Positions 1-64,000 of a stretch of 64,000 bases of DNA are shown piece by piece. This DNA is from a virus (taxonomy: Duplodnaviria; Caudoviricetes): positions 1-64,000 of the IMG/VR virus record IMGVR_UViG_3300021431_000093; one strand, written 5' to 3'. Every line of letters starts with the position of its first letter. The stretch's first letter is position 1. The translations under genes were made by a program, and so were the position numbers. A model generated the notes under the pieces. The model was not told where the DNA came from. It worked only from the letters and a program-made list of their open reading frames with translations, and searched no databases.

Positions 1-107
1 GTAGACTCCAAATATTTAATCAGGTCTTCAATTCCTTCCCGTTTAGTTGACCTAAGTAAATTATAAAATTGTACTGTATTAGAATCACGTTCTTTCTGAT
101 TTAACAT
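1..107 (-). CDS. 5' part of a probable HD-domain phosphohydrolase (runs off the window)
   Basis: ATG at 105-107 overlaps the upstream TAA. MLNQKERDSNTVQFYNLLRSTKREGIEDLIKYLEST resembles the N-terminus of phage HD-family proteins, but the HD motif is outside the window. Confidence 0.5.
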   Translation of the reverse strand, partial: MLNQKERDSNTVQFYNLLRSTKREGIEDLIKYLES

Positions 108-295
108 TAGTAATATACCTCACATGTGTAGGATGGTGAATATTCTTCCTTTAATCCGTCAATTACATTATGAATATTATCTACGTCATATACTTCAATA
201 TCTTTAACATATTCGTATGTCTTTGTATTTTGTACCTTAACTCTATAACATCTCGATAATGGTAATTTGTAGAAAGTGATTGAATATTTGTCCAT
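107..295 (-). CDS. small early hypothetical protein
   Basis: 62-aa ORF with GAGG SD, downstream of the promoter at 326-357. Confidence 0.7.
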   Translation of the reverse strand: MDKYSITFYKLPLSRCYRVKVQNTKTYEYVKDIEVYDVDNIHNVIDGLKEEYSPSYTCEVYY

Positions 296-325
296 TTTAA
301 TCTATTTACCTCTTTTCTAAAATAT

Positions 326-357
326 ATAATAACATAATATTTAATTGATGTAAACTA
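326..357 (-). promoter_or_regulatory. early sigma70-type promoter
   Basis: TAG-TTTACA-N17-TATTAT with extended -10 TG; member of an 11-copy family. Confidence 0.75.
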
Positions 358-786
358 TTTCACCATAGCATAGTAATTATGCTGTCCCCTCTTTTCACCT
401 GGTTCCCAATAAACTTTTATTTTCTTATATGATTCAATAAGTGGTATTAAATCTTCAGGAGTTTTAATATTAACTATCTCCTTAAATTTATATTTATTAA
501 AATATTCTGATTTAGCCTTGTCTGATCTTCTACTAGCTTTCTTAAACAACTCATTAGCTTTATCAGACTTTTTCTTATCAGAATCTGATACCTGAATAAT
601 ATTTGACTTTACTAACTTATATTTCCAATCATCTGTTTCTTCATATTCTTCAAGAATAGTTACATTGTCTTTAGTAATGCCATATGTATTAAGTATCCTT
701 TTATAAAGTTGATTATGATTATCAGCTGTCATATAGAATTGTTTGGTTGTTCTTTCATCTGTGATAACACTAAAAGAATAAATCAT
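355..786 (-). CDS. early hypothetical protein
   Basis: 143-aa ORF, GGAGG SD; its TAG stop is part of the downstream promoter motif. Confidence 0.75.
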   Translation of the reverse strand: MIYSFSVITDERTTKQFYMTADNHNQLYKRILNTYGITKDNVTILEEYEETDDWKYKLVKSNIIQVSDSDKKKSDKANELFKKASRRSDKAKSEYFNKYKFKEIVNIKTPEDLIPLIESYKKIKVYWEPGEKRGQHNYYAMVK

Positions 787-789
787 AAA

Positions 790-1041
790 TTAACCTCCAA
801 ATGAAAAATCTGGTTCACCATCCGGTTCAAGAATTTTCTTCCATCTAGCAAACTTCTTACTCTTATTATCTATATTTGAATTTTCATAACCTCTAGCATA
901 ATTCATCATCTTAATACAATATTCATTATAGAAATTTTCCATTGGTTCAATTTCTTCGAAATAGTACTCTCTATAATTACTTGAACCATAACTAACTACA
1001 AGAAGATATTTAAACTTATTTGGAACTTTACTCTTTTTCAT
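790..1041 (-). CDS. early hypothetical protein
   Basis: 83-aa ORF, GAGGT SD, own promoter. Confidence 0.7.
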   Translation of the reverse strand: MKKSKVPNKFKYLLVVSYGSSNYREYYFEEIEPMENFYNEYCIKMMNYARGYENSNIDNKSKKFARWKKILEPDGEPDFSFGG

Positions 1042-1061
1042 TATTTCTTACCTCTATTTTT

Positions 1062-1093
1062 AGTATAACAAATTAAAAAGTGGAAGTAAACTA
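1062..1093 (-). promoter_or_regulatory. early promoter
   Basis: TAG-TTTACT-N17-TATACT. Confidence 0.75.
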
Positions 1094-1420
1094 CTTCCAC
1101 TTAACACATTTTCTCCAATACTTCAACCAAGATTCAAGAGTAGGATACCTGTCAGTAAACCATTGTAATCCCGTCCTCTTCTCATCATCCAATCTCATGT
1201 AATAATCTTTTATAGCCATATCTTCTGACCAATACCACCGATAATCACAAATATTGTAACTACAACAATGCTTCTTATAATCGGAACCTTGAATTAACTC
1301 ATCGCTGTTTCTAAACTTATTTCTTATCGAATGATTATAATACTTCTTAAAATAACGTCTCCTTAAATTCTTACCATGACTATCTGTTACATATGTATTA
1401 TATTTATACGATCTACTCAT
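1091..1420 (-). CDS. basic conserved phage protein of the MSRSY type
   Basis: MSRSYK...RRRYFKKYYNHSIR...YKK...YNICDY pattern; start could also be 1426. Confidence 0.7.
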   Translation of the reverse strand: MSRSYKYNTYVTDSHGKNLRRRYFKKYYNHSIRNKFRNSDELIQGSDYKKHCCSYNICDYRWYWSEDMAIKDYYMRLDDEKRTGLQWFTDRYPTLESWLKYWRKCVKWK

Positions 1421-1616
1421 AATCATAATCCTCCATCAGCATTTGATTAAATCTCCTGTAATTCTTATAGTAATTATAATAATCTAATTCATTATAATAA
1501 TCATTAAGGTTACCTAAATCTTCATTGGTTATTTCACCTTTACTTAAAATTAACCTTACATTATTATTAATTCTATAAATTTCCCTATTACAAACGCTTT
1601 GGTAATTATTAATCAT
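1413..1616 (-). CDS. early hypothetical protein
   Basis: 67-aa ORF, GAGGT SD, promoter at 1644-1675. Confidence 0.65.
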   Translation of the reverse strand: MINNYQSVCNREIYRINNNVRLILSKGEITNEDLGNLNDYYNELDYYNYYKNYRRFNQMLMEDYDYE

Positions 1617-1643
1617 GAATACACTACCTCACTTTCTGATTAT

Positions 1644-1675
1644 ATTTTACTAAATAAGTGATAAAATGTAAACTA
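1644..1675 (-). promoter_or_regulatory. early promoter
   Basis: TAG-TTTACA-N17-TAAAAT. Confidence 0.7.
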
Positions 1676-1701
1676 AAAGAGGATCATATGATCCTCTTCT
1701 T
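1675..1701 (-). terminator. rho-independent terminator ending the lysis operon
   Basis: AAGAGGATC-atat-GATCCTCTT hairpin followed by TTTT on the minus strand. Confidence 0.75.
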
Positions 1702-1702
1702 A

Positions 1703-1918
1703 TTATCCTTTAGCTTGTCCGTTTGTAAAAGATTTTGTAATATTTTCCATTTCAGCACAAGGTTCAGTGTAGAAGTCTTCAAGTTCAACAAACTTCATAC
1801 CTCTCTCTGCACCTAACCTTTGAGCTTCTTTTTCAGCACATTTTTTACAAAGTGGTGAAACAAATCTTTTTGAAATATATCTAGCAGGCTTACCACAAAG
1901 TACGCATTTTTCTTCCAT
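1703..1918 (-). CDS. small Zn-binding protein (CxxC...CxxC)
   Basis: AGGAG SD before ATG 1918; CVLC and CKKC motifs. Confidence 0.65.
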   Translation of the reverse strand: MEEKCVLCGKPARYISKRFVSPLCKKCAEKEAQRLGAERGMKFVELEDFYTEPCAEMENITKSFTNGQAKG

Positions 1919-1928
1919 ATCTATCTCC

Positions 1929-4900
1929 TTAAATAACATTTAAGTCTGAACGTTCATCTAATAAATAAGATGAAATCCTAGAACCTTTAAGTTGTAATCT
2001 ACCAAAACTATTCATATTTGCACCAGCCTCATGAGCTAATAATACAGACTTACCACCTTTATCACTAATAGATTCAGCATTAGTAGCATAATTATAGTGA
2101 CCTTGTAATACAGCAGTTAATCCTTTTGTATTTTCAATTAATGAGTCTGTTCTTGCTTTATACCTACTATCAGATTCATATGTAGATTTACACATATGAG
2201 TAATAACTACTATATAATCAAAGTTTGCATCTTTTAATTCATCAATATATTTCTGAACTTGCTTGAATAACTTATCTCCATCATAGAATACAAAATCACC
2301 ATAAGTCCATTCACCATCTGAATATGAACCTTGTCCATTAGGAGATGGATAACCTATACCAATTACGCCAATCCTCTTTGAACCAATCTTTGCGGTTCTG
2401 TAAGGTTTATAAACTAACTTACCATTACGGAACATATTACAAGCTGTCATACTCTTATCTTGATTTAAGATATTGATTGTCTCGTTAGGATCTCCCCATT
2501 TCCACTCATGATTTCCATAAGTTGAAGCGAAGTAATCTTTATTATTCATCTGTGTAGCTGATACCATTTCACCTGTATTTACATAATCAGTGTAAACTCT
2601 ACAAGGTCTAGACCAGTCACCACAGTCAACTAATAAGGCTTTAATATTGTTCTTTTTAAGTTTTGTTCTGTAACTATTTAAATCATCATAGTTAAATACT
2701 GGACTCAAATAGTTTCCATCTTCATCATATCCGACCCATGCTCCATGAACATCAGCTGTATATAATAAGTCAATCTCATCATACTCATTAGGATCAACTA
2801 TATCATAGTCAAATGGATCAAAGTTATTATCAATAAATGACCTTAACTCAGTGACTTTTGTATATAACTCGTCATATAAATCCATCTGTTCATTTCTATT
2901 GACACATGTAAGTGCTATATCTAATGAACTCTTTAAAGCAGGAATTTCCTTCTTTAACTCTGGTCCTCTTCTTGAACTACCAGCAGGATAATATACAACT
3001 TCTTCAATACCTGCTACCCAAGCATTATCACCTAATTTATATCAAGTATAATCTGATTTAACTTCAGATGCAAGTACATTATAATTTGAATTTTCTTCAC
3101 AATAACCGATTCGTTTACTTGAAGTTGTACTATCAGTTCTAATACTTAATAATACATCAGGAACATATAATTGATCTCTATTAATATCTTCAGGAACAGG
3201 AGATGGTAATTCAGATGCTACTAAATAATTAATACCGTTAACGTCAGCAACAAATGCTTCATCACCAATCTTATACCACGTATAACCACTTCCCTCATCT
3301 TCAGATAAAACATTGTAATAAACATTGTTCTTACAAGTTCCCATTATTTCATCATTAGTTGAAGGTCCTTTTCTGATATTGATTTCTGATCTAGTTACTT
3401 GAATCTGATTTACTTTTGTATTCCTATCTACAGGTGTTGGTTCTACCCAAACTGGAGTAGGCTCTTCAGCAGGATAATACTCTACTTCAGGAATTCCTGC
3501 TATATATGAATCAGGTCCTAAATGATACCATTTATAACCACCTGAGGTTGTTACATCTAATATATTGTAATAAACAAGATTTTCAACATAACCCATAACA
3601 GCACCACTCATTGATGGTTCTTTTCTGATTCTTACAACACCTTGCTTATTATTAATGTAAACTTGATTCTTTAAAGTATCCTTTTCAACAGGAACCGGTT
3701 CAACCCATACTTTAGCCTGTTTAAATTCTACTTCATCAACTCCAGCAACTCAAGAATTTTCACCGATATTGTACCAAGTGAAATCACTCTGTACTGACTT
3801 ATCTATTACATTATAGTACACATGATTTACACATGCTCCCATTATCTCATCTTTTGTTGATGGACCTTTTCTAATTCTTACAACTCCACGGTCATTATTA
3901 ATGAATATCTGATCTACCTGATCATTTTGTTTTACTACTTCAGGTTGTACTCAATCACTCATAATTTCTTCCGCCTCTTTAAATTCAACTTCTTTAACAC
4001 CAGCAACCCATGATCTGTAACCAATATTGTATCATGTATAATCATCTTCCTTTTCAATCTTATCTACATTGTAATAAGATAAATTTTTACATGCTCCCAT
4101 GATTTCAGATTTTGTTGATGCTGATTCTCTAATCCTAACAACTCCAGATTTATTGTTAACATAAATCTGACTTCTACTTCTATCTTCAGGTACTGTTTCA
4201 GGTTCAACTCAAACTTCTGGTTCAGGTTTAGGATAAAATTTTATTTCATCTACTCCTGCTACCCAATACTGATTTTCAAGTTTATACCAAGTATATCCAT
4301 CTGCTTCTTTAATATCAAGTACATCATAAATGCCTTGAGGACAATAAGTACCTGTATATTTTGAAGCTGATAATGATGGATTTGTTCTTACATTAATATA
4401 TTGACCTAAAACTTCAATCTGATCTTTATTCGCATCACGATCAACTATTTTACTGTTTACAGGTAAATATATAAAACCAATTAATCTACCAACACCATCA
4501 AGAGTAATCTTTCCTGGAATTAATTCAACTACACGTGATCTTCAATATTTTCAATCTCGTCTTGATTTATTAGCATCATAGTTTGATTCAGAAATTATAG
4601 CATGCGTAGCATCCAAACGTTTTTCTACAAATGCTACATGACCATAATTACCGTCAAATACAGCAACTGAACCAGTAAGAAGCTCTTGACCTTTAGCAAA
4701 TATAGTTGTCTTATATCAATCTTTAGCATTACCAAATCCACCACCGGCTCTTACCCATGGAAATCTTTCAGTTGCTTCCATAGCTTCATAGCCTCTACAG
4801 AAACAATATGTTGTACAATTTGGTAAATTAATATCAGCATACTGTTGAGCAGTATTGAATTGTCCTCCTGGTTTAAAGTATTTGTTAGGATTATTATTTG

Positions 4901-4939: not shown

Positions 4940-5371
4940 TTATCCTTTCTCTACAATATCACTGTCAACATTATAATCAACTGTACTAGTACTTAATTCA
5001 GAATTATAAGTTGCTTCTTTTGCTTCTTTACGTAATCCAAAGAATTCAACAGCATTCCCATACAGTTTAACACCATATACACCAATTGCAAGAATAATAA
5101 GAGCATTTAACATTGCTTGAATTGTATATGTTGCTTCACCAATCTGTATAACTGCTAAATCACCTCCGAAGAAAGCGCCAACAAAATATACAAACGATAA
5201 GAGTAAAAGAACACCAAGATTAGCAGCAAGGCCTAAAATTAATCTTTTTCAATCAAAATCTTCGCCTTTATCATTGAAAGGTTTACAAGAAAATACTTTA
5301 AATCCTGTAAGTGCAACAATGATTGCTAATAAAATTATGGAGTTAGCAAAGAAAGATAATTCAATTTTCAT
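4940..5371 (-). CDS. holin (143 aa, TGA=Trp)
   Basis: GAAAGGAG SD; three hydrophobic segments once the TGA at 5249 is read as W (FDWKRL); immediately upstream of the lysin. Confidence 0.8.
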
Positions 5372-5531
5372 GACTATATCTCCTTTCAGATAATATACCA
5401 TACAATATTTATTAATTAATATACAATAGGTTTTGGAGGAAAACAGACGTAAGAAGTGCTTCAACTGGTACAGGAACATATAATATAACAATTAATAAAT
5501 TTATAGTGCTTGAAGCTGATTTATCATAATT

Positions 5532-5559
5532 AAAAAAGAGGATTCAATCCTCTTTTTTT
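5532..5559. terminator. bidirectional rho-independent terminator
   Basis: AAAAAAGAGGATT-c-AATCCTCTTTTTT. Confidence 0.8.
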
Positions 5560-6130
5560 ACATTATAGAACATTGTCCAGCTGTTTTTGTTTTAGCCACT
5601 ATAGTTGTATTTTCAGTTACAGTTAATGTATATGGATTATTGCTTGATAATAGTGATCCATTTTTATATCATCCATCAATTGTATATCCCCTTATAGGAT
5701 ACATCATAATATCAGTATCTCCTCCTGCATATCCATTACCAACTATAGTTGCTGTATTTTCAGGGTTAGATACTATAGTTAATAAATAACCACCGGATGC
5801 TGTTATGTCATATATTTTTGATGTTTCATTATCAGTTGAAGAGTATCCTACTCTTAACTGAGTTGCATATATATCTACATCAAGATTTATTGTAAATGTA
5901 GTACTTGATCTAGCTGATCGAGTTTGAGATACTTGATAAATATTTACTCATTGATTATTTACATATGCGTCTATTATACAATATATAGTAGCTGAATATT
6001 TTGCTCCTGAATTTCCCACTGTATATGTTCCACTTATATTAAGTAATTTACCACTAGATAATTCTACTATTTTGTTTCCTGTTTTAGATGAAGTTGTATC
6101 AGTAGTTTTAATTTGTCCGAGTATTTTCAT
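5558..6130 (-). CDS. beta-rich virion-type protein with an InlB B-repeat-like C-terminal domain (TGA=Trp)
   Basis: 190 aa after read-through; PIRGYTIDG[TGA]YKNG...YTLTVTENTTIVAK matches the GYTFxGW repeat pattern. Confidence 0.7.
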
Positions 6131-6199
6131 AATTATTTAATAAATATACTAATAGTGTTTTTTTTTTAATTCTCATTGATTTATGACTAAGTCATGTAA

Positions 6200-6293
6200 T
6201 ATTTTAATTTTATTATAAAAAGTACATTTGTTTTATATATTAAGTTTCACTTGATTGTATATATTTTAATCTTGTATAATCAGTTATGGTCAT
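6200..6293 (-). pseudogene. decayed tail-fibre-domain gene fragment
   Basis: MTITDYTRLKYIQSSET*YIK resembles the YTxLEYIESTGTQYI fibre motif but is broken by TAA; the 3' boundary is approximate. Confidence 0.45.
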
Positions 6294-6295
6294 AA

Positions 6296-6880
6296 TTAAT
6301 AAACTCCATATATCCTATAAGGAGTTACATTATTATGCGAAGATGCATCTCATCTAATTGTGCCATCTGAATCAAAATAATATCATCTTCTTCCATATCA
6401 GCCTCCGTTACACGTACCACCCATCTCACTACCACCTTTTGGAATAAATACAGTGGTAGCTGGTTTATCAACAGCTGTACAACTTGATACAATAATAAAT
6501 TTAAATCTACTAAAGTCACCATCAAGTGTAGTTGCTCCAACATTTACAGCTGTAAGGTTTTCATATAAAACTTGTACACTAAAACTATTACTTCACTTTA
6601 ATCCATATACTTTAATTGGATTTACATTATTATGCGAAGATGCATCTCATCTAATTGTTCCATCTGAATCATAATAATATGTACGTCTACCATAATATGT
6701 TCCTCATGTAGGACCTCCATTTGCTTGAGTACCTTTAATAAGTACAACAGTCGATGCAGGAGTATCAGCTGCTACACGATTAGTTATTACTATCATATCA
6801 TATTGTGGAAAAGTACCTAAATTCATTTCTCCAACAGCTTCTACCGATGGATTTGTATATAAAGTATCCATTGTTATCAT
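6296..6880 (-). CDS. two-repeat fibre-tip-like protein (194 aa, TGA=Trp)
   Basis: Two tandem ~97-aa domains, each ending YY[YF]DSDGTIRWDASSHNNVxPxx[VI]YG; paralogous to 6895-7209. Confidence 0.75.
6325..6680. repeat. 59-bp direct repeat, 57/59 identical (6325-6383 and 6622-6680)
   Basis: direct alignment at offset 297. Confidence 0.9.
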
Positions 6881-6894
6881 AAATTTAAATCCTC

Positions 6895-7209
6895 TTACTT
6901 AAATCCCATTATAAGTCAAGGAGTAACATTTGAGCCAGCATCAAATGAAAATGTACCATTGGATGCATATGTATAAGTTCTATATCCAGAATTTGTACCT
7001 CAAGCACAACCTCCTAGATCAGATCCTCCTTTAGCTAAAACAACACAATTTCCTGGTGTACCGGTTTCAGAACCTACTATGTTTAATACAACTATAAATT
7101 TATAATCATATACTCCAAGTGTTGTTGCACCAGGAACTGTTCCTGAATATGTATATAAAATATCCATTTTTGCAGGTACTGTATGTTTTCTAATTAAACA
7201 GTTACCCAT
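6895..7209 (-). CDS. single-domain fibre-tip-like protein (104 aa, TGA=Trp)
   Basis: Read-through gives GGCAWGTNSGYRTYTYASNGTFSFDAGSNVTPWLIMGFK*, the same domain as in 6296-6880. Confidence 0.75.
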
Positions 7210-7385
7210 AATCTATTCACATTATATATTTAATGTTAACACCCTCTTAAAATAACTCCATGAGTCCTAGGACAATTAAATATTTTCCTCCTTTTCTTAT
7301 AATTATAGAGTACCCATCTACGAACTTCCCTAGGTTTAAGTGTAAAAGTCTCCGGTATACTTTTTGCATTTAAGATAATATACAA

Positions 7386-7396
7386 TAAATTTAGCA
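7386..7396 (-). promoter_or_regulatory. putative late promoter TGCTAAATTTA
   Basis: same 11-mer found upstream of head and tail genes. Confidence 0.6.
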
Positions 7397-7419
7397 GTCA
7401 TTTATACATTATTATATAG

Positions 7420-8208
7420 TTAAAATAAAGCTACCTCTTCTATTATTGGCTCTACTACTTCATCAATTAATTCTGATCTATCTTTTCCATTTGTACTACA
7501 ATACTTTTGATATTCACACCATCTACAAGATAAGCTATATCTTTTTTCATAAGATGTAGCTTTTTTCATTAGGTTCATTCTTGCAAAGAACCAACTTACT
7601 TGTTGAGGATCATAATCAACTTTTACAAATTGTACATCATGCTTAATAATCCATTTATTGAACTTTGTTTTTAAATCTTCTTCAGATAAATCTTCATTAA
7701 GTTTCTCTGAAAATTTAGGAATCATTACGTAATACATATCTCTGATTTTATTACCTGTTAATCTTTCATAAAAATTCTTATAGACATGTATTTGTCCTGA
7801 TTTCATATATTTAGATGGACTTGCTGAAGTAAATTTAAAATCATAAAGATCATAAACTCCTTCATCTACTTTAACCAGTCCGTCAATATAACCAACAAAA
7901 TTATCAGTTAATAATTTATGCTCATACTCTGCACATTCAGGTATCTGCTCAATTGCTTTCTTCATTAACTGTTCCATCTTGAATATCTCAATATCATGAT
8001 CAGTTCCTAAAGATGGAAAATTTGACTTATAACTATTTATACCTTCCTCTATTGACCTCTTCTCAATCGCTTCATGTACAGCTGTGCCTTCAAATAAAGG
8101 ATTATCAGGTCTTAAGTCTGGTTTTGTTTGTAATTTATCTAAATACTTTAATTTATATTTAAAAGGACACTCCCACCATGTAGAAGTTGACGAAAAACTA
8201 TATCTCAT
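7420..8208 (-). CDS. PD-(D/E)XK Cas4/RecB-like exonuclease
   Basis: CP...GTAVH...GYIDGL...DFK...CRWCEYQKYC (Fe-S cysteines). Confidence 0.85.
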   Translation of the reverse strand: MRYSFSSTSTWWECPFKYKLKYLDKLQTKPDLRPDNPLFEGTAVHEAIEKRSIEEGINSYKSNFPSLGTDHDIEIFKMEQLMKKAIEQIPECAEYEHKLLTDNFVGYIDGLVKVDEGVYDLYDFKFTSASPSKYMKSGQIHVYKNFYERLTGNKIRDMYYVMIPKFSEKLNEDLSEEDLKTKFNKWIIKHDVQFVKVDYDPQQVSWFFARMNLMKKATSYEKRYSLSCRWCEYQKYCSTNGKDRSELIDEVVEPIIEEVALF

Positions 8209-8228
8209 AACAATATACCTCTTATTAT

Positions 8229-8260
8229 ATTATAATAAAAAGGTTAGTTTTTGTAAACTA
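8229..8260 (-). promoter_or_regulatory. early promoter
   Basis: TAG-TTTACA-N17-TATAAT. Confidence 0.8.
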
Positions 8261-8262
8261 AC

Positions 8263-8817
8263 CTACATGTGTTTTTGAGAATAGTTAAATGTTTGCATTT
8301 CTTGAATTTTTGAAGAAAGTATCTTCGATAGGGCTTTAGAAACATCGTTTGCTTGATCAACTTTATCTTTTAGGATTTTACTACACCTTGAATAAATAAA
8401 ATTAAGAACATTATCTGATAATGCTGTTTGATCTGCATGAGCCCTTAATTGCTGAACAGTGTATTTTTCTCCAGCAGCATAATTACCTTGCTTTTCAAGA
8501 TATGCATTATTGTATGTAGTCTGATACTGCAATTTACTTACATCTTCCAATCAACCAATTTTCTCAAGTTTTTCTGTTGTAAAAAATATTGTTGTTGTTA
8601 AATCCAATAATGCCTTCTGAATAGATAAAATATCAAAATCTAAATCATACTGTCTACACTGATCAAGATAAGCTTTAACTGCTCCTACCTTTTCATCTAA
8701 ATCTTTTGAATATTCCTCTAATAAAGGTCTACCAATTGATTCAAAATATTCCATATTAGAATTTAATTCTTGAGCATGTTGTAATAAATCTTCCTGGTTA
8801 ATCTGTACTTTTGCCAT
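8263..8817 (-). CDS. helical protein, possibly a UvsY-like recombination mediator (TGA=Trp)
   Basis: ORFs 8551-8817 and 8263-8550 abut in frame across one TGA; the function is a guess from context and helical pattern. Confidence 0.55.
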
Positions 8818-9274
8818 AATTAATTAACTCCGAATAATTACTTTTCATAAATGTTCTTAATTTATAGGATGGAATCTCCAGGATAGGATAATCATCATTA
8901 TCAAACATTTTTCTGATATTATAAGATTTTAATCCTTCTTTTTGAATCTTTTCCATTGTTTGAACTGGTATCCATAATACTTTATCATAATCAATAAATC
9001 ATACGACAAATCCTACACGAACACCTTTTATATTTTTATATTCCAACATCTGATCATATTGTCTTAAATCAGAAAATGGAAGTGTATTACCTTGAATTGA
9101 CTTACAATCAATTATAAACATTAAAGGATATTTATAACAAATAAAGTCACCAACATTTCTCTGTCCCATATACCCTGACATTGTATCATAGAGTCTATAG
9201 CAAACAGAATCAGGGACCGATTCTACTCAGTCTGATTTAAATCGGTCCTCAAATTTCTTCCCGCGAGATGCCAT
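8798..9274 (-). CDS. recU: RecU-like Holliday junction resolvase (TGA=Trp)
   Basis: MASRGKKFED...VGDF...IDCKS...LRQYDQM; 158 aa with two TGA. Confidence 0.75.
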
Positions 9275-10386: not shown

Positions 10387-10400
10387 TTTCTAACTACCTC

Positions 10401-11583: not shown

Positions 11584-11589
11584 AATTAA

Positions 11590-12885: not shown

Positions 12886-12894
12886 ACCTGTCTC

Positions 12895-42109: not shown

Positions 42110-42110
42110 A

Positions 42111-51968: not shown

Positions 51969-51984
51969 TCTATTTCCTTTCAAA

Positions 51985-54129: not shown

Positions 54130-54153
54130 TTATAACAACCTCCCGGCATATAT

Positions 54154-54164
54154 TAAATTTAGCA
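54154..54164 (-). promoter_or_regulatory. putative late promoter for protease and capsid genes
   Basis: TGCTAAATTTAATA followed by GGGAGG SD. Confidence 0.65.
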
Positions 54165-54185
54165 CTTTACCTTGAAACTTTTTCA

Positions 54186-54641: not shown

Positions 54642-54673
54642 GTCATTCCTTTCTTGATAAAATCAACTAAAGA

Positions 54674-56581: not shown

Positions 56582-58594
56582 TTATCAATTCAATATTCCA
56601 TCGTATATATCCAATGACAAATCATCTGAATTAAATGTATTGAATATATTTTGATCCTGTTTACTTATATAAGATGGTTTTTGTTTTAATGATTCTTCAA
56701 ATTGTTGTATATAACTTTGCATATCATCATTATTACTACCATTAAAATCAATCATTGCTTCAAGTGTTTCACCATAATCATATGAAAACTCTTCAGCATG
56801 AAGTGAAGCATTATACAATGCTCCACAGACTCCATCAGCAGAGTCTTTACTGTTTATACCTGAAGGATCATGGTCAACTTTACCATTGTTATTATTCCTC
56901 TTTAATCCTACAAGCTCTTCTGTTAATAGATTAATACCCTTACGAGGCAACTTTAACCTTTTCTCATATATGCAATTCTTTAAAAATGCATATGGTTCAC
57001 AGATACCATTATTAGTTCTATCTACAGATAATATACTATAATTATATCCTTTTGCTAAAAGGTCTTGTTCAACACCTGATCGTGCAAATGTATCTGATGT
57101 TATACCTTTAATTTTTAATCCTTGTTCCTTAAGTCAATAAATAAAATTCCTTGTTTTCTCAAAACTAACCTGTTGACCCCTAGGAGCTTTTATAGAAACA
57201 ACAAATCCAAGTTGAAAATACATCTCTGGTTGAACTTTTGTTTTTTCTTCACTACTTTCACTGCCGTGTAATTTCATCCCATCTATGAATATACCACCTA
57301 TACCGGTTTTATCTCCCGTTAATGACATATCTAAATGGATGAATAATGGTTTATTTTTAACTGATTCAGGTATCTTATCTATATCAAAGAAATCATATAA
57401 TTCCTCTTGATCATTAGTACCTAATTCAACTATTTCCTTAGTGAATGGATTGACAAATGATTCTGTTTTGCACTGAGTTATCTTTTCACCTGAAATATAA
57501 TTACTAGTACTTGATGTTGATATACCTGCGATGTCAGTAAGTGCAATATCTATATCATCAAGGAAATTTTCATAATATCCTATAGGTACATCAAGTAACC
57601 TAAATCCTCTTTCAATATAGTGTTGACATTCATCTTCAGTTATATCTGGAGGTAACACCTCTGAAGGCAAAAATTTATTACCAATTGCTATTTTAAATGT
57701 TCTATCAGAAGCTTTATCAGTTCTAATAATCCATTGAGGTTCATCTATAATAATTGTAGTCTTACTTTCATTCCTCTTCTTATTTTCTATCCATGTTTCC
57801 AAGAATGATTGTTCAGTTCTTTTTGATGATGCTAAAACAAGAATTGTAGGATTTGAAGTACCTCTCATAAAACGAGATTGCATACGAGCAGTAGCTGATG
57901 AAACTAATTCAGTTGCTTTCTGTTTCTGCTTTTCAACATCTTGATTAGGTATAAATGAAATTTCATCAAAGAATGCCCAGAAAAGAGCTCTACCTATAAA
58001 GTGTCTAGGTTGTGAACCACATATTAATTCTATATTGCTATCAGGATTTGGATATCATTCAGGATTATTTGATTTTGTAATAGTGCCGTGGTGCATAAAT
58101 CACTCTGATTCCTGAATCATATTCTGTAATTTACTTCATGCTACACCTTGAGCAGCATCTATAGTTATATTAATAACAGCAAATGAAATAACATCAGTCG
58201 ACATTATTCCATAATAAACTGCAGGATTTTTTAAACATAGCATTCTATATAGTTCATAAAGACCTATAATAACTGCTTCTGTAGATTTACCTATACCAAT
58301 TGCACCTGTTAGTGCTAATGTATTACACACTGCTGGTTGTAAAGGATCAGGATAAATCTTTTTAAGTAACTCTTCCCAATACGGAAATAATGTAAATTTA
58401 CCTTCAGCATTCATCAATCCACGACCTAAATAATATTGATCGTGGATAAATGTTTCTATATCTACAGGAATTTCTTTTCAGTCCTCATTTAAAATACTAT
58501 CCATTGTACTTGAAGTACCTTCACTGGACATCTCATTTAATATTTTAAGGACTGCTTCCCGTTCTTGTTGTGTTAAATTTTCTAAATTAGACAT
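56582..58594 (-). CDS. terL: terminase large subunit (670 aa, TGA=Trp)
   Basis: GAIGIGKS Walker A, FFDEI Walker B, HLDMS nuclease, DH...SKDSADG; three track ORFs share one frame. Confidence 0.9.
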
Positions 58595-58616: not shown

Positions 58617-59621
58617 TTATCTTTTTTCAATAGTTAATGGTATTCTGGTAAATGAACTATATGTTGAACTTGTACTATTATTATATCCTACAATTAATAC
58701 TATATAATCAGCAATTAATGAATCAGAATCACTATTAAATTCTAAATTACTGAATGTAAATTCAAGTTTCACTTCATCATTTTCAGTAAATGATCTACTC
58801 TTACTTAAATACATATACTCACCTGTAGAATCTACTTTAATAATGACTATTTTACCATCAGTAATAGCTTTTGAAATTTCAGAGAAATCAACATCTAATA
58901 TAGGTTCTCCACCAGTAATGGTCATTGTAACCAATAATACTTCTGAAGGTAAATCAATCATCTTTCATACTTGATTTTCTACACCAAGTACTTTACCATC
59001 AAATCCTACTTCCATATCAGGTAAACTATTAACTTTAATATTAATATCCTTATTTTCAGATTGATTAGCACTAAATGTACCTATAGGTTTATCATTTTGT
59101 TTAATAGTTAATATTCCATCATTTGGAGTTGTACCATGTTTAACAGATATTATATTATCTTCAAGATTAATACCTTCACCTGCTGTAAGATTGTCTTGTT
59201 TTGAATCTAATAAACTTTCAATATCAGCTATATTAGTTTCAACTGTATCAATTCTATCATTAACTGGTACTAATGCATCACCAACTTCTGGTAATGTTAC
59301 ATAAGGAATAAATAATCCTTCACTTGAAGTATCACCATTACCATCATTAACTAATTGAGATGTATGTGTAGGACCATCTATAACTAAATCACCCTCACTA
59401 TCCTCTTCGATTGTTATATTTTTACCGGGAGTTAATTTATCCTGCTTTCTAAGGTATTTGGTACTTAATTCACTTACTGATCTTTTAATTAATCCAAATA
59501 AATTCATTAAATCAGTTTGCTTTTCAATATCACCCTTTAATTTACCTCAGAATGTTACATACTCAACTGAATCATTTTCTGTAATATTCGCTGTCAACTT
59601 CGTGTCTTTAATTTCAGTCAT
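58617..59621 (-). CDS. fibre-like virion protein (334 aa, TGA=Trp)
   Basis: F[W]GKLKGDIEKQTDL, KQDKLTPGKNITI, KQDNLTAGEGI, GKVLGV...[W]. Confidence 0.75.
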
Positions 59622-59633
59622 CTATATCTCTCC

Positions 59634-60008
59634 CTAGTCTATTATATTAAATCTTGTCTTTTGTAAAGCAGTGTCTATATGAGAAACTCCTGCTTCATCT
59701 TTATATAACACTTTAATCTGATAATAATATGTACCCGGTACTAATTCAATTGTGTCTTCAGGATTAAGAACAACCTTAAGTGTACCACCCTCTATATCAT
59801 AGTCATCATAACCTAACTCTTTTTTAAGAATTGCCTTTTCAAAAGGTTGATTAGGTTCCATTAAACCAAAAAATACAATATCTCCCTTTTGAATTTCATA
59901 ATAAGTTTCATTTGGAAATTTTCCAGATTTTAACTCTATCTTTAAACTGAGGTAATCACCTCTGTTCATTGTTATGACTTTATCTTTTCTAATTAAATAC
60001 AAACTCAT
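59634..60008 (-). CDS. BppU-like virion protein
   Basis: ITMNRGD...LNPEDT...PGTYYYQIK. Confidence 0.7.
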   Translation of the reverse strand: MSLYLIRKDKVITMNRGDYLSLKIELKSGKFPNETYYEIQKGDIVFFGLMEPNQPFEKAILKKELGYDDYDIEGGTLKVVLNPEDTIELVPGTYYYQIKVLYKDEAGVSHIDTALQKTRFNIID

Positions 60009-60024
60009 ATATTTACCTCATATA

Positions 60025-60035
60025 TAAATTTAGCA
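60025..60035 (-). promoter_or_regulatory. putative late promoter
   Basis: TGCTAAATTTA followed by GAGGT SD. Confidence 0.6.
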
Positions 60036-60038
60036 GTT

Positions 60039-60719
60039 TTAAAAAAATCTACTGTCAGTTGGATCAAACTTATCACCACCACCTCTTATTCTTCTTATTA
60101 TACTGATAGATGATATTTCATTTGATTTTGTTAAACTACTATTACCTTTATTTCATGTTGAATACTGATCATCCAAGAAGTGAGATCGATCATATGCAGG
60201 TAAATTTGTTTTCATATCCATACTGTCAAGTAATTTCTTACATTTTTCATTGAATACTCAATCTTCATATCCAGTACCTTGCTCAGGATCTACTGATAAA
60301 TCATAATTAACTCTATCAAATCCCCTACGAGAAATACAACTAAAATTATTTAAATAATTTTTAACATAATAATACTCTTTTTTGGTACTTTCAATAATTG
60401 ATATATAATTATCATATTCACTTTGATCTTCTGATAATTCCATATCATCATCAAGCATTATCATATAATCATACACAGAATTTAAAAAATGTTTTCTTAA
60501 AATTATTCTTGCTCCTGTTATTCCTAATTTATTATAATTAAATACAGCAATATTACCTTGTTCAACTTTAAATTCTTTTCAATTTTGAGCTACCATGATT
60601 ATTGGTAATTTGAAATGATTATTTAGTTGTCTTAATAATTTTTTTAATCTATCTATTCTTACTGACCTGCTACTAGAATCATCAGGTAAATAACTTACTA
60701 TTCCTATACATATTTTCAT
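60039..60719 (-). CDS. GT-A glycosyltransferase (TGA=Trp), paralog of 62020-62655
   Basis: MKICIGIVSY...AQN[W]...LGITGAR..LR..FLNS.YDYMIMLDDD...GYED[W]. Confidence 0.8.
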
Positions 60720-60721
60720 AA

Positions 60722-61354
60722 TTATACCTTTTTAAGATGTTCTCAATTTCAAGATATACTTCCTTCACGAGGGTAATTATAATGATAAGCATGAATACAT
60801 AATCTTGTAAATTTAGGTTTTAATTTCTCTACATCCCTCATCATAAATCAATCTTCAGCCCGCCTATATGTTGGATTAATCTCTATATTATTATTTCTTA
60901 AATACTTTAATTGTATAAAATATCTTCAGGTAGCATTACATGACATTGACATACATATAGAACCTGAATTATCATCATGATCAAGTATGAGTATCTCGTC
61001 ATCGTCATGTCTTTCATACAACTTATCTATAATAATAGAATAATTATCAGTATATACATAATCATCACTATCTATTGTTGAAATATATTTACCTGATGCT
61101 TTTTTATACATTAAATTTTTAGTATATCCAACTCCCATGTTAGACTCATTTCTCATCAGTATAAAATTTCCAAATTTATTAGCATTAATATGATATCATT
61201 TATTTAAAATAATCCAACTATTATCATTACTAAAATCATCACAGCATATAAGTTCAATATCACTTCTTTTAGGTATAGAATCCAAACACCTTACGAGTGT
61301 ATCTTGTACATTATATACAGGAACTACTATAGTTAAAATTATTACGTTTTCCAT
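60722..61354 (-). CDS. family 2 glycosyltransferase (TGA=Trp)
   Basis: TIVVPVYN...CLDS...DDFSNDNS...GKYISTIDSDD...AED[W]. Confidence 0.9.
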
Positions 61355-61356
61355 AC

Positions 61357-62019
61357 CTATGAAATCACTCCTCTCCTATTCACATCAATATGAATTCCTT
61401 CAGATTCAAAAAACTCAATTGCTTCTTTTGTTCATTTACCTCTGAATATTGCCCATATATCACCTGTATATTTATGACCTCAATCTATTATTCAGTCATT
61501 TAATGAATAATATTCATATTTTTTGCAATTATTCATTAATTCAAATGTTCATGGATCAGTAGCTACATTGATAACATCAAGTAAACTTGGTTTAAATCAA
61601 AGCTGACACATCATACTTGTTTTATATAGACCATTTACTGATCTTTTACTTAATGTATTATTTATAAATTCATCATTATGATCAAATGACTTTTCAAAAT
61701 TTACTGCTGCAATATTATCAATTGATTTCATAAACAACTCTAATTCATTAATATAATTAGAATTAACTTTTTTTCTTATAAATATATCATCGCACATAAG
61801 AAGTATATAATCATCATCAATTAATTTGACAGTGTTTCATATTCTCCTTGTTCATAAATTTAAATCTAAATTGAATTTTATTGTTCTATAATAAGGATTA
61901 GATAATGTCTCTGTTGAATAAATTATTTCAGGATGATCTGGTCAGTACTTCTCAATACAATGATAAAATAACTCTCATAAATCATTATTCTTGTCACAAC
62001 TACATACAAGTATTTTCAT
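61357..62019 (-). CDS. putative glycosyltransferase (TGA=Trp)
   Basis: ILVCSCD...L[W]...KY[W]PD...YILLMCDDIF...DP[W]TFE...IFRGK[W]. Confidence 0.7.
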
Positions 62020-62655
62020 TTATAACTCCTTTATCATTGCTCTTGTTCTGTCACCTATATCATGTTTATTAAATTGTTTATGATATCATGTTGAATTAGG
62101 ATCATTAGCTGAATCAGATACATCATTTAATGTATTTCTTATAAATAAAAATTTATTTTCAGGATACAGTTTATTCAATAACATTATTAAATACATGTCT
62201 TCAAAGAAATCACCATTTTCTGCTTCACCTTCAGGATAATCAACTTCTCTAAACATATCCTTTGATATAGCAAATAATTTCAATAATTGTGATTTATAAA
62301 TTCCATATCATTTACCAGGATGATTTTCTATTTGATCAAGGTACAAAGAAGCATCTGAACGAATTCCAACAAGTTTAGCATCATCATCTAACATAATAAT
62401 GTAATCAAAATCTGAATTAAGAAATTTATTCCTTAATTCTTTTCTAGCACCTGTTATACCTAATTTATCATAATAAAATGGAATTACATTATCATAATTT
62501 ACAGTAAAATCATTTCAATTCTGAGCAATTATCAGTATTGGTAAATTAAATAACCTATTACAATCAAGTATAGTTTTATTTAATCTATCAATTCTAATAT
62601 TTCTTAATTCTTTATCATCAGGAAAATAACTAATGATACCTATACATATCTTCAT
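62020..62655 (-). CDS. GT-A glycosyltransferase (TGA=Trp), paralog of 60039-60719
   Basis: MKICIGIISY...AQN[W]...LGITGARKELRNKFLNSDFDYIIMLDDD...FFED. Confidence 0.8.
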
Positions 62656-62667
62656 ATAATAATATAT

Positions 62668-62696
62668 AAAAAAAAAGGATTAATTAATAATCCTTT
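62668..62696 (-). terminator. terminator after the fibre gene
   Basis: AAAGGATT...AATCCTTT stem with T-run on the minus strand. Confidence 0.6.
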
Positions 62697-63637
62697 ACCA
62701 TAACTGTTAATGCTGTAGAAGTAGCAGCATCACTATAAAATGTAATAGTATTTGCTGAAGTATCAGCTCTATAGATATGCGATCATGCTTCTGTATATGT
62801 TGCCACATTTGCTGCTGTATCAATGTAAACATCTACAACAGGATTACTATTTGCTGTAACACCTGATACTGTAACAGCTTTTGATCCAGCTGCCGTAAAT
62901 ACAGGTAAAGTACATGTAGTGTATTTTGTAGCAGCTGAAGCTGTAATAGTTGTATTTGTAACTCCAGTTACATGACCTGTAGCATCTACAGTAATTTTAG
63001 GTACTGCCGTAGCACTTCCATATGTACCAGCAGTAACTCCTGAATTAGCATGTGATATTGTTCATGTACCTGAACCTGTTACAGCTGTACTACTTCCACC
63101 TGAAATTGGTGATGTTGTCTTAACTGTTATAGATGTTACTGTACCTGTATTTGATGTTTTACTATTTCAAGTGTACTTCTCACCAGTTGTTACTAATGAA
63201 ACATCTGTACCACCACTAGCTGCTGTTTTACTTGAATATGTAGTATTAGGTGGAGTCGTAAATATATAAGTTGATCCACCAGCTGTAAGTTGATATTTTG
63301 TACTTGCTGCTAATGTTATAGCATTAGTACCAGTACTTGTTGCTATTGATAATGAATGGGTATGATTACCTGCAGCTGCTGTTGATGCAGTAGTACCAAT
63401 TGCCAAATTCGACTTATTATTTCAAGTGTATTTTTCACCTGTAGTAACAAGTGATACTTCAGTACCTCCCGAAGCAGCAGTTTTAGAAGTATAAGTAGTA
63501 TCAGTAAATTTCGCATTTGCTGGAACAGCAGTTAAAACAGTAAGATTATTAACCTTATCTGAATTAGTAGCAGTTCCATATATTTTACCTGTAACTCGTA
63601 AATCTCCAGTTACGAGACTGTCTTTTAATTGAGCCAT
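62684..63637 (-). CDS. Thr/Ser/Ala-rich tail fibre protein (317 aa, TGA=Trp)
   Basis: Duplicated SKTAASGGTxVSLVTTGEKYT[W]N; VPANAKFTDT; SGVTAGTYG...ITVDATGHVT. Confidence 0.85.
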
Positions 63638-63654
63638 AATATATTATACACTCC

Positions 63655-64000
63655 TTACTTCTCTATAAAATTATCTGCTGAAATAAAATCTTTTCCAATT
63701 TTTGCGTTATAATATTGTGATGGCGTAATTTTAAAATTTGTTACATCAATTCTTCCAGTTCCATCAGAATAATCACATCTAAATCCAACATGTGATTTTG
63801 AATAAGTATTAAACCATGATGCTGGTATTATTGTTGTTACATCATAATGATGCGTACCTGCGGTAAGTGCTCTTGTTGCATTTATAGCAAAACTTGATTG
63901 CAATGCGCTGCATACATAATTTGTTCCAGCTCATTTTCATGTTGAATCCGTTTTATCATATTGACTTCCTTGTCATCATATTCCTTTAAATGTTCCGCCG
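63655..64000 (-). CDS. C-terminal part of a tail fibre protein (partial, TGA=Trp)
   Basis: frame open to the window edge under code 4; ends ISADNFIEK*. Confidence 0.7.

What the first reader, a model, noticed from the sequence alone, without database searches (positions are those of the whole stretch)
107..64000. TGA codons are partitioned by gene class, suggesting a translational timer for tail assembly and lysis
Seen: the small early genes, polymerase (7 Trp), primase, helicase, SSB, initiator, clamp, Cas4-like nuclease and the DNA-linked glycosyltransferases use only TGG. So do the capsid, portal and protease genes. Holin, endolysin, terminase, neck, tail, fibre and late glycosyltransferase genes contain TGA; the tail CHAP gene has about 15 TGA against 1 TGG. 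Inference: in such an AT-rich genome a code-4 host should favour TGA everywhere. Avoidance in early genes, together with two peptidoglycan hydrolases, points to a walled standard-code host in which read-through is switched on mid-infection. TGA-free capsid genes suggest that suppression is incomplete and costly for very abundant proteins. The switch itself (tRNA-Trp UCA or an RF2 antagonist) is not visible in this window.
Basis: partly seen in the sequence, partly recalled or inferred. Interest (0 to 1): 0.8.

Follow-up and report, generated by a model that had tools for sequence, protein, structure and literature searches.

The report
TGA-as-tryptophan phage with code-neutral early genes
This is a partial genome of a gut phage that writes tryptophan as the stop codon TGA in most late genes but never in its earliest genes, a published trick of gut phages; the missing switch, a TGA-reading tRNA, sits in close relatives just past the point where this contig breaks off.

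Summary
After correcting gene starts, early genes use 0 TGA in 36 Trp codons once two genes with their own late-type signals are set aside. Replication genes use 5 of 48. Capsid, protease, portal, sheath, tube and a 599-aa protein use 2 of 22. All other late genes use 139 of 175 (0.79), exactly the neutral expectation from A/G third-position bias (0.80). TGA means Trp, not Gly or Ser. The partition is conserved in relatives down to about 40-60% protein identity.

The "invisible switch" has an explanation. The record is a linear contig rated 60% complete. Its break lies where a ~90%-identical relative and a complete 151-kb relative carry a tRNA array containing a conserved tRNA-Trp(UCA).

TGA use in late genes is neutral, and it is below neutral in the lysis cassette, so an adaptive timer is not shown. 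Within the late class, TGA avoidance tracks a codon-bias signature of high expression.

This scan had already noted TGA recoding in this genome, and it had described the same odd two-armed UCA tRNA on other DNA.

The parts
107..1939 (-). Six small genes behind sigma70-type promoters (TTTACA-N17-TATAAT at about 1672, 1090 and 354). Together 0 TGA / 9 TGG. Probably the start of the early region, cut off by the contig end.
1929..4937 (-). Endolysin, 1002 aa: CHAP, SH3_3 repeats and a C-terminal metallophosphatase-like part. 8 TGA / 15 TGG.
4940..5491 (-). Holin candidate directly upstream of the endolysin, with three TM-like segments. 1 TGA / 0 TGG.
5558..7409 (-). Rest of the lysis-proximal cassette: three small non-membrane proteins with 10 TGA / 0 TGG. 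The late-type motif TGCTAAATTTATTGT lies at 7396.
7420..22723 (-). Replication module behind sigma70-type promoters: exonuclease, RuvC-like resolvase, clamp, two DNA glycosyltransferase pairs, PolA, SSB, primase, DnaB, DnaC-like loader and initiator. 5 TGA / 43 TGG in 18 genes.
22896..24889 (-). SNF2-type helicase (5 TGA / 3 TGG) and a 109-aa gene. This DNA-metabolism gene is recoded here; its C119 orthologue has 0 TGA / 4 TGG.
24967..41164 (-). Baseplate, tail-fibre and unknown late genes. TGA is at the neutral level; this block with the SNF2 unit totals 72 TGA / 18 TGG. It includes two Trp-rich genes with 16 TGA / 1 TGG each (24967-26769 and 33634-34587).
41164..44350 (-). Baseplate hub (0/0), tail tube (1 TGA / 3 TGG) and tail sheath (1/6). 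These are TGA-poor late genes with raised C-ending codon use, and a terminator follows the tube gene.
44369..49863 (-). Neck and connector genes with TGA (12 TGA / 2 TGG). Embedded among them is the TGA-free 599-aa gene 46521-48320 (0/2), which has its own late motif at 48368.
50574..56572 (-). Head core: major capsid protein 50574-51968 (0 TGA / 4 TGG, strong terminator after it), protease/scaffold 51985-54129 (0/2, late motif at 54164), a 151-aa gene, and portal 54674-56572 (0/3).
56582..58594 (-). Large terminase, 6 TGA / 4 TGG. TGA and TGG interchange freely in its orthologues.
58617..64000 (-). A 334-aa gene, four small putative glycosyltransferases (20 TGA / 2 TGG; only 60722-61354 hits a GtrB-like family), a 317-aa gene, and the start of a fibre gene that runs out of the window (63655-66063, 13/6).

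Best explanation
The window is the larger part of a 100-kb, roughly 60%-complete contig of an uncultured gut (ruminant-type) myovirus. All its genes are on one strand.

The phage infects a walled bacterium, probably a Firmicute, that reads TGA as stop. Early genes are transcribed from host-type sigma70 promoters. They must be translatable by the naive host, so they are kept free of TGA. The phage brings its own tRNA-Trp with a UCA anticodon. Once that tRNA is present, TGA is read as Trp.

In genes expressed after that point, TGG-to-TGA changes are nearly neutral, and in this AT-rich genome they have drifted to mutational equilibrium at about 80% TGA. Genes whose products are needed in very large amounts (capsid, sheath, tube, the 599-aa protein) stay on TGG, probably because decoding by the suppressor is slower or less complete than decoding of TGG. 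Portal, protease and the 72-88 kb block also stay mostly on TGG, perhaps because they are made earlier.

Any TGA-containing gene is therefore passively gated by the suppressor, but the data do not show that TGA was selected in order to delay tails or lysis.

Shown: the codon partition, that TGA means Trp, conservation of the partition, the two promoter classes, the truncated contig, and the suppressor tRNA in relatives. Inferred: the host's code, that this phage carries the same tRNA in its missing part, and the efficiency argument.
For: The partition survives the GC3 control.

TGA codons align with TGG, TGA, Tyr and Phe, and never with Ser or Gly, at independent sites in distant relatives. 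That is the same spectrum as for TGG codons.

The partition is conserved. Early genes are TGA-free in G001, G006 and C119. In C119 the capsid is 0/6, sheath 0/9, tube 0/4 and PolA 0/8. Capsid TGG stays TGG in 35 of 38 cases across 11 relatives, whereas terminase TGG becomes TGA in 10 of 40.

Sigma70-type promoters precede the early and replication units. A strand-specific late motif (9 hits against 0 on the other strand) precedes both TGA-free and TGA-rich late genes.

The contig is linear and 60% complete by CheckV. G001 (~90% nt identity) continues 12.6 kb past the point matching contig position 100,004, with 8 tRNAs including Trp(UCA). The complete, circularly closed 151-kb relative C119 has 34 kb, with 29 tRNAs of which the first is Trp(UCA), in the interval where this contig retains about 12.5 kb.

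The two UCA tRNAs share A1-U72, G5-C68, G73 and CCA, and they show compensatory changes in the acceptor and anticodon stems.

Among 42 late genes, C-ending codon preference ranks capsid, sheath, tube and the 599-aa protein highest, and it correlates negatively with the TGA fraction (rho = -0.44, p = 0.003).

The published model and its clade descriptions match.
Against: No suppressor tRNA, release factor or TrpRS is present in the 100 kb in hand, so the switch in this particular phage is inferred from relatives.

The host is not identified. The endolysin search returned only unnamed metagenomic phage proteins.

The nucleotide after in-frame TGA shows no avoidance of strong-termination contexts. 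Such avoidance might be expected if RF2 competed strongly.

Portal, protease and the 72-88 kb block are TGA-poor without the high-expression codon signature, so abundance alone does not explain all TGA-poor late genes.

The TGA fraction also correlates with general A3 bias (rho = 0.52), so part of the gene-to-gene variation is compositional.

A few replication genes carry genuine TGA codons, so the boundary is not sharp.
Confidence: 0.75

Rival explanations
1. Adaptive timer. TGA codons were positively selected in tail, fibre and lysis genes, so that these proteins cannot be finished until the suppressor has accumulated. This would set the time of assembly and lysis.
For: Every gene of the lysis cassette contains TGA, and the cassette has its own late motif. 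Borges et al. found lysis-linked families biased towards recoded codons in two other lineages. Homing endonucleases embedded in early regions are TGA-rich here and in G001, as in their Agate phages.
Against: TGA use in ordinary late genes is 0.79 against a neutral expectation of 0.80. In the lysis cassette it is lower (0.56), and in the endolysin it is 8 of 23. So nothing is enriched above drift. In the complete relative C119 the suppressor tRNA lies about 190 nt behind an early-type promoter, and in G001 it sits among genes with early-type promoters. That points to early rather than delayed synthesis.
Confidence: 0.2
2. The host itself reads TGA as Trp (code 4). The TGG-only state of early, replication and core virion genes then comes from translational selection or accuracy, not from a code switch.
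For: There is no switch gene in this contig. TGA is never used as a stop (0 of 99 genes). There is no context bias after TGA.
Against: Zero TGA in 36 early Trp codons, at an A3 share of 0.76, conserved in three relatives, is not what weak translational selection gives. Replication genes show no high-expression codon signature (mean C3 share 0.11). Relatives carry their own tRNA-Trp(UCA) beside a tRNA-Trp(CCA). From general knowledge, the well-known code-4 bacteria are wall-less, whereas this phage has a CHAP+SH3 endolysin.
Confidence: 0.07
3. Mosaic ancestry. The TGG-only modules were recently imported from standard-code phages and have not yet had time to accumulate TGA.
For: Early regions of this clade are visibly mosaic: genes sit in different places in G001 and C119, and two permease genes are 82-88% identical between genomes that are otherwise 50-60% alike. 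PolA is closest to standard-code Clostridium and Streptococcus phages.
Against: The same genes are TGA-free in relatives at 40-68% protein identity, where synonymous sites are saturated. Over the same distance, terminase and neck genes interchange TGG and TGA freely.
Confidence: 0.05

Closest known systems
Stop-codon-recoded gut phages that switch code during infection (Borges et al., bioRxiv 10.1101/2021.08.26.457843; TGA-to-Trp lineages 'Agate' and 'Jade')
   Same: TGA aligns with Trp. The replication machinery is largely in standard code while structural and lysis genes are recoded. The genome is low in GC and uses no TGA stops. Relatives carry a suppressor tRNA(UCA). A homing endonuclease in the early region is rich in TGA. 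The phage comes from an animal gut and is Firmicute-like.
   Different: GC skew never changes sign and all genes are co-oriented, unlike the bidirectional pattern reported for Agate. There is no RF1 or TrpRS module as in Jade. The lysis genes are not preferentially recoded here. Clade membership could not be tested by terminase phylogeny.
Block-wise dual coding in crAss-like phages (Yutin et al. 2021, PMC7886860; Mgcod, bioRxiv 10.1101/2022.06.29.495998)
   Same: The genome divides into blocks compatible with the standard code and blocks that need a reassigned stop (abstracts).
   Different: Those are podovirus-like phages of Bacteroidetes, mostly with TAG read as Gln. This is a myovirus with a family A polymerase and Gram-positive features.
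Two-armed UCA suppressor tRNA noted earlier in this scan (e1-5768471, e1-5686554)
   Same: The UCA tRNAs of G001 and C119 are 96-97 nt long. They carry an extra hairpin whose loop repeats U-CCA-A, the tRNA-Trp anticodon loop.
   Different: There is no sequence-level match to those earlier windows. The tRNA is not in the present contig. Charging by TrpRS through the extra arm is untested.
Phages of code-4 hosts (Mycoplasma and Spiroplasma phages; Cook et al. 2024, PMC11210395)
   Same: In-frame TGA is read as Trp.
   Different: Those phages simply share their host's code. Here TGA is excluded from early genes, and the phage has a peptidoglycan-directed endolysin.

Membership tests
TGA-to-Trp recoded phage with mid-infection code switch (Borges model) | Many genes are open only if TGA is read as sense | tested here: met
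   49 of 99 genes contain in-frame TGA, 187 codons in all.
TGA-to-Trp recoded phage with mid-infection code switch (Borges model) | TGA aligns with tryptophan in homologues | tested here: met
   Against distant relatives: TGG 26, TGA 20, Tyr 14, Phe 5, Ser 0, Gly 0. Against 11 relatives: TGA 85, TGG 34, Gly 1.
TGA-to-Trp recoded phage with mid-infection code switch (Borges model) | Early genes are readable in the standard code | tested here: met
   0 of 36 Trp codons are TGA in early genes behind sigma70-type promoters, and this is conserved in G001, G006 and C119.
TGA-to-Trp recoded phage with mid-infection code switch (Borges model) | Phage-encoded suppressor tRNA(UCA) or another code-change gene | tested here: inconclusive
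   Absent from the 100-kb contig. But the contig is 60% complete, and the tRNA is present in G001 and C119 in the segment missing here.
TGA-to-Trp recoded phage with mid-infection code switch (Borges model) | The host uses the standard code | not testable with these tools
   No host assignment was possible. Indirect signs only.
TGA-to-Trp recoded phage with mid-infection code switch (Borges model) | Lysis genes preferentially use the recoded codon | tested here: not met
   The lysis cassette is 0.56 and the endolysin 8 of 23, against a neutral expectation of 0.80. This is a single genome, so power is low.
Agate clade | GC skew indicating bidirectional replication | tested here: not met
   No sign change of skew in this contig or in the complete 151-kb relative.
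Agate clade | Placement in the Agate branch of the terminase tree | not testable with these tools
Agate clade | Genome of about 127-154 kb from animal guts, with a TGA-rich homing endonuclease in an early gene | tested here: inconclusive
   The relative C119 is 151 kb and from goat ileum. The GIY-YIG endonuclease has 5 TGA / 1 TGG. This genome's own full length is unknown.
Phage sharing a code-4 host's code | TGA is used evenly across temporal classes | tested here: not met
   Fisher p = 2e-26 between early+replication and late genes.
Code-25 phages of Absconditabacteria (TGA = Gly) | TGA aligns with glycine | tested here: not met
   Gly appears 1 time in 151 aligned cases, and 0 times at independent distant sites.

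The most novel reading that the evidence does not exclude
Within the late class, which shares one late promoter motif, TGA use may be graded by how much protein is needed. Low-copy virion and accessory genes sit at mutational equilibrium (about 80% TGA). The most abundant virion proteins stay on TGG and carry a separate codon-bias mark of high expression. That would mean the phage's suppressor only partly converts the cell, and that it sets a measurable translational price on each TGA. The suppressor is an unusual tRNA-Trp(UCA) whose extra arm copies the Trp anticodon loop. It is seen in relatives and presumably lies in the missing part of this genome. If so, recoding would act as a built-in expression-level dial as well as a gate.
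Probability: 0.4. Interest if true: 0.5.

Novelty: new member of a known kind. Interest (0 to 1): 0.3.

Why it matters
The result confirms, in an independent lineage of large Gram-positive-type myoviruses, that stop-codon recoding spares the genes a phage must express before its own tRNA is available.

It also adds two cautions for the field. First, TGA frequencies in late genes can be fully explained by drift after release from constraint, so recoding is not by itself evidence of a lysis timer. Second, a missing suppressor tRNA in a metagenomic contig may be an assembly artefact, because contigs can break at or near tRNA arrays and the tRNA has an odd shape that standard tRNA models score poorly.

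In practical terms, this genome must be annotated with table 4. Otherwise about half of its genes are truncated.

Tried and rejected
(1) Permissive tRNA hunts in the contig (ARAGORN at low thresholds, with introns, and in mitochondrial mode) gave only noise: hundreds of hits at the lowest threshold, with the UCA candidates (93595-93680 antisense, 64954-65028 in the sense strand) lying inside coding genes. Rfam at gathering thresholds found only tRNA(CAU) at 99,262-99,336.

(2) Pfam RF-1 and class-Ib synthetase searches of this contig and four relatives found nothing in the phage contigs. The single RF-1 hit is on an unrelated contig of the same contaminated bin.

(3) The nucleotide after TGA shows no bias against strong-stop contexts (p = 0.18 and 0.6).

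(4) An apparent excess of TGA in the last 10 codons (15 against 5.7 expected) looked like stop-codon relics. TGG is enriched at C-termini too (8 against 2.1 in the last 3 codons), so this is a property of Trp, not of TGA.

(5) Host assignment failed. The endolysin SH3 region finds only unnamed metagenomic phage endolysins. The 181-kb contig found that way ends right after its endolysin.

(7) Exact and degenerate pattern scans for the UCA tRNA in IMG/VR returned only G001.

(8) The tRNA-Sec reading of the relatives' UCA tRNA was rejected. RF01852 scores of 40 and 35 bits are below the 47-bit cut-off, the acceptor stem has 7 bp, the tRNA has Trp-type identity elements, and the roughly 190 TGA codons align with Trp.

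(9) G001's extra 12.6 kb was checked for translation genes. It holds nucleobase permeases, a deoxyribosyltransferase, DUF1599, an Fe-S protein and a NUMOD3 endonuclease instead.

(10) The CHAP identity of the Trp-rich tail genes could not be confirmed.

Full report
WHAT THE SEQUENCE IS. The window is bases 1-64,000 of a single 100,004-bp contig with 30% G+C. IMG/VR classes it as linear, and CheckV rates it 60% complete. All credible genes lie on the minus strand, and GC skew never changes sign.

PHROGs and Pfam give the gene content of a large myovirus. There is a sheath, tube, baseplate hub and wedges, a portal, a prohead protease, a major capsid protein and a large terminase. The replication module is built around a family A polymerase, with clamp, SSB, primase, DnaB, a DnaC-like loader, an initiator, an exonuclease and a RuvC-like resolvase. 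There is also an SNF2-type helicase, a topoisomerase IA, a UvsX-like recombinase, and a lysis cassette with a three-TM holin candidate and a CHAP+SH3_3 endolysin.

The nearest cultured relatives are phages of Firmicutes. For PolA these are Clostridium phiCTP1 and Streptococcus Dp-1. For the portal they are 124-222-kb myoviruses of Streptococcus, Listeria and Bacillus.

CHECK OF THE OBSERVATION. I called genes with TGA as sense and tabulated in-frame TGA and TGG. Several stray TGAs sat in the first codons of longest-ORF calls. Inspection of start codons and SD sites showed them to be outside the real genes. The capsid starts at ATG 51968, so the TGA at 51995 is upstream of it. The TGA at 92326 lies in a promoter. 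The TGAs at 12521, 12907 and 12922 belong to mis-called ORFs.

With corrected models the classes are as follows.
- Early genes: 8 TGA / 44 TGG. All eight are in the GIY-YIG homing endonuclease and the 836-aa gene that has its own late-type motif. The remaining 22 early genes have 0 TGA in 36 Trp codons.
- Replication genes: 5 / 43.
- The 72.5-88 kb block of large proteins: 14 / 45.
- Capsid, protease, portal, sheath, tube and the 599-aa protein: 2 / 20.
- All other late genes: 139 / 36.
- Lysis cassette: 19 / 15.

Fisher's test gives 2e-26 for early plus replication against late, and 1e-10 for core virion against other late genes. The A-ending share of Lys, Glu, Gln and Leu (TTR) codons is 0.73-0.80 in every class. 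The ordinary late genes sit at that value (0.79 against 0.80). The other classes lie far below it, with binomial p from 1e-10 to 1e-20.

So the partition is real. The details needing correction are listed under the observation check: a second helicase and a few replication genes do carry TGA, the sheath and tube are TGA-poor, and the 'tail CHAP' is not confirmed.

MEANING OF TGA. In eleven related IMG/VR contigs found through the portal, this genome's TGA codons align with TGA 85 times, TGG 34, Tyr 12 and Gly once. At independent sites in the two more distant relatives the spectrum is TGG 26, TGA 20, Tyr 14, Phe 5, Ser 0 and Gly 0. That is the same as the spectrum for this genome's TGG codons. 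TGA is therefore Trp (code 4), not Gly (code 25) or Ser. No gene ends in TGA: the stops are 73 TAA and 26 TAG.

IS THE PARTITION MAINTAINED BY SELECTION? Three relatives were compared gene by gene: G001 (70 kb, ~90% nucleotide identity), G006 (57 kb) and C119 (151 kb, 40-68% protein identity). Early genes are TGA-free in all three. In C119 the capsid is 0/6, the sheath 0/9, the tube 0/4 and PolA 0/8. Across eleven relatives, capsid TGG stays TGG in 35 of 38 cases, whereas terminase TGG is replaced by TGA in 10 of 40. At these distances synonymous sites are saturated, so retention of TGG means purifying selection against TGA, not recent import.

TRANSCRIPTION SIGNALS. Intergenic regions show two motif classes. 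A sigma70-type TTTACA-N17-TATAAT precedes the units at 88-100 kb, 7.4-22.8 kb and 0.1-1.9 kb. A different motif, TGCTAAATTTAATAT, has 9 hits on the gene strand and none on the other. It precedes the protease/capsid pair (54164), the neck genes (50112, 49878), the 599-aa gene (48368), the 815-aa gene (80396) and the lysis cassette (7396). Variants precede the 1566-aa and 836-aa genes. TGA-free and TGA-rich late genes therefore share one late signal, so promoter class alone does not explain why the head and sheath genes avoid TGA.

WHY ABUNDANT VIRION GENES AVOID TGA. As an expression proxy I used the C-ending share of two-fold pyrimidine-ending codons. Among 42 late genes the four highest values belong to the capsid (0.35), sheath (0.24), tube (0.22) and the 599-aa protein (0.19). 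The correlation with the TGA fraction is rho = -0.44, p = 0.003. The capsid and tube genes are also followed by strong terminators.

It does not cover everything. Portal, protease and the 72-88 kb block are TGA-poor without that signature, so earlier expression or some other constraint must act there. The TGA fraction also follows general A3 bias (rho = 0.52).

WHERE THE SWITCH IS. The contig has one tRNA, with anticodon CAU. It has no release factor and no TrpRS gene. But the contig is incomplete.

G001 aligns with this contig from 46.4 kb up to 99,931. It then continues for 12.6 kb that have no counterpart anywhere in this contig, even at the protein level. That segment carries seven of G001's eight tRNAs, among them tRNA-Trp(UCA) at 4611-4706; the eighth, tRNA-Met(CAU), lies in the aligned part and matches this contig's lone tRNA. 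G006 likewise has more than 22 kb of unmatched upstream DNA.

A 151-kb contig filed in a goat-gut 'Methanobrevibacter' bin encodes a capsid 66% identical to this one. It is surely a mis-binned phage. It is syntenic with this genome and closes on itself within the glycosyltransferase cluster. Between the exonuclease and the early region it has 34 kb, where this contig retains about 12.5 kb split over its two ends. That stretch holds 29 tRNAs, of which the first is tRNA-Trp(UCA) and a later one is tRNA-Trp(CCA).

The two UCA tRNAs are homologous, 96-97 nt long, with an anticodon loop CU-UCA-AA, A1-U72, G5-C68, G73 and an encoded CCA. From my own knowledge, these are Trp identity elements in bacteria. 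The two genes differ by compensatory changes in the acceptor and anticodon stems.

Rfam's general tRNA model scores G001's copy below threshold (22.7 bits) and does not report C119's copy; the tRNA-Sec model scores them 40 and 35 bits, also below its cut-off. The reason is an extra hairpin. Its loop reads UU-CCA-AC in G001 and keeps U-CCA-A in C119, which makes it a copy of the tRNA-Trp anticodon loop. Earlier follow-ups in this scan described the same architecture in other TGA-recoded cattle-gut phages. I confirmed the architecture here but not its proposed role in charging.

In C119 an early-type promoter lies about 190 nt upstream of this tRNA. In G001 the tRNA sits among genes with early-type promoters. 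The other genes in G001's extra segment are for nucleotide metabolism, not translation.

I conclude that the suppressor most probably lies in the missing part of this genome, right next to the contig break. This is an inference. Read-level confirmation was not possible.

TIMER OR PASSIVE GATE? Any TGA-containing gene cannot be completed before the suppressor acts, so a gate exists by construction. An adaptive timer would predict enrichment of TGA above neutrality in the genes to be delayed. Here ordinary late genes are exactly neutral, and the lysis cassette is below neutral. The suppressor appears to be an early transcript. In-frame TGAs show no sequence-context adaptation. The most economical reading is constraint in early and high-output genes, with drift elsewhere. 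The TGA-rich homing endonucleases in early regions fit the suggestion by Borges et al. that such selfish genes are held back until late.

COMPARISON WITH WHAT IS KNOWN. Borges et al. (bioRxiv 10.1101/2021.08.26.457843) describe TGA-to-Trp phages of animal guts predicted to infect standard-code Firmicutes. [quoted passage not shown] TGA stops have been lost. Suppressor tRNAs were detected in only 35% of code-4 genomes. An intron endonuclease in an early gene is among the most TGA-biased families. Block-wise dual coding is also established for crAss-like phages.

This phage is therefore a new member of a known kind. I do not file it under 'Agate', because the bidirectional GC-skew feature is not met and the terminase phylogeny could not be run. 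It lacks the RF1/TrpRS module of 'Jade'. Their text does not mention capsid genes at all (0 occurrences). So the abundance-graded avoidance seen here is a modest addition rather than a rediscovery.

VERDICT. The 'missing switch' is explained by an incomplete contig together with relatives that carry a conserved tRNA-Trp(UCA). The residual novelty is the graded avoidance of TGA in high-output late genes and the neutral level elsewhere.

Noticed in passing
contig ends: window position 1, and L002:18004 (= genome 100,004): The record is linear and 60% complete by CheckV. The break falls where relatives carry a tRNA array, so tRNA arrays may be a common point of assembly failure, and that would hide suppressor tRNAs from surveys.
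   Followed up: partly
L024:4611-4706 (G001) and L036:5403-5499 (C119): A 96-97-nt tRNA-Trp(UCA) carries an extra hairpin whose loop copies the Trp anticodon loop (U-CCA-A). It scores below cut-off on both the tRNA and tRNA-Sec Rfam models, and it shows compensatory changes between the two genomes.
   Followed up: partly
L024:4420-4610 and L036:5210-5402: A G+C-rich leader of about 190 nt precedes the UCA tRNA in both relatives. The two leaders share short blocks (TTGGTAC, TCGGGCAT, and ACATA just before the tRNA) and have no Rfam match. It could be a processing or regulatory RNA.
   Followed up: no
window 54164, 50112, 49878, 48368, 7396; also genome 80396: A strictly strand-specific late-type motif, TGCTAAATTTAATAT (9 hits against 0), is presumably the phage's late promoter. 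The factor that reads it is unknown.
   Followed up: partly
L002:12959-13849 (genome 94,959-95,849): A GIY-YIG homing endonuclease with 5 TGA / 1 TGG lies inside the otherwise TGA-free early region, preceded by a structured 173-nt gap. G001 has a NUMOD3 endonuclease with 3 TGA right after its UCA tRNA.
   Followed up: partly
L032-L040 (G007:C119, JAFRFD010000012.1): A complete 151-kb bacterial-type phage genome is filed in a Methanobrevibacter MAG from goat ileum. The 3.1-Mb bin has 90 tRNA hits and a bacterial RF-1 gene on another tRNA-rich contig (C133), so it is heavily contaminated with phage or bacterial contigs.
   Followed up: partly
L024:6950-9600 and C119 104.7-108 kb: Two xanthine/uracil-type permease genes are 82-88% identical between G001 and C119, genomes that are otherwise 50-60% alike, and they sit at different places. 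This looks like a recently exchanged nucleobase-uptake module, accompanied by a nucleoside deoxyribosyltransferase and DUF1599.
   Followed up: no
whole contig: Trp is enriched at protein C-termini for both codons (last 3 codons: TGG 8 against 2.1 expected, TGA 4 against 1.7). The terminase ends in TGA-TAA, and gene 46000-46512 overlaps the next start in an ATGA.
   Followed up: partly
window 1929-4937: The endolysin combines CHAP, SH3_3 repeats and a metallophosphatase-like C-terminal domain. The SH3+metallophosphatase combination recurs in many metagenomic contigs, including a TGA-recoded 181-kb contig (L042).
   Followed up: partly
window 24967-26769 and 33634-34587: Two late proteins are unusually rich in Trp (17 Trp codons each; 2.8% and 5.4% of residues). 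Almost all of these codons are TGA, and neither protein matches a known family except for one Listeria-Bacteroides repeat.
   Followed up: partly
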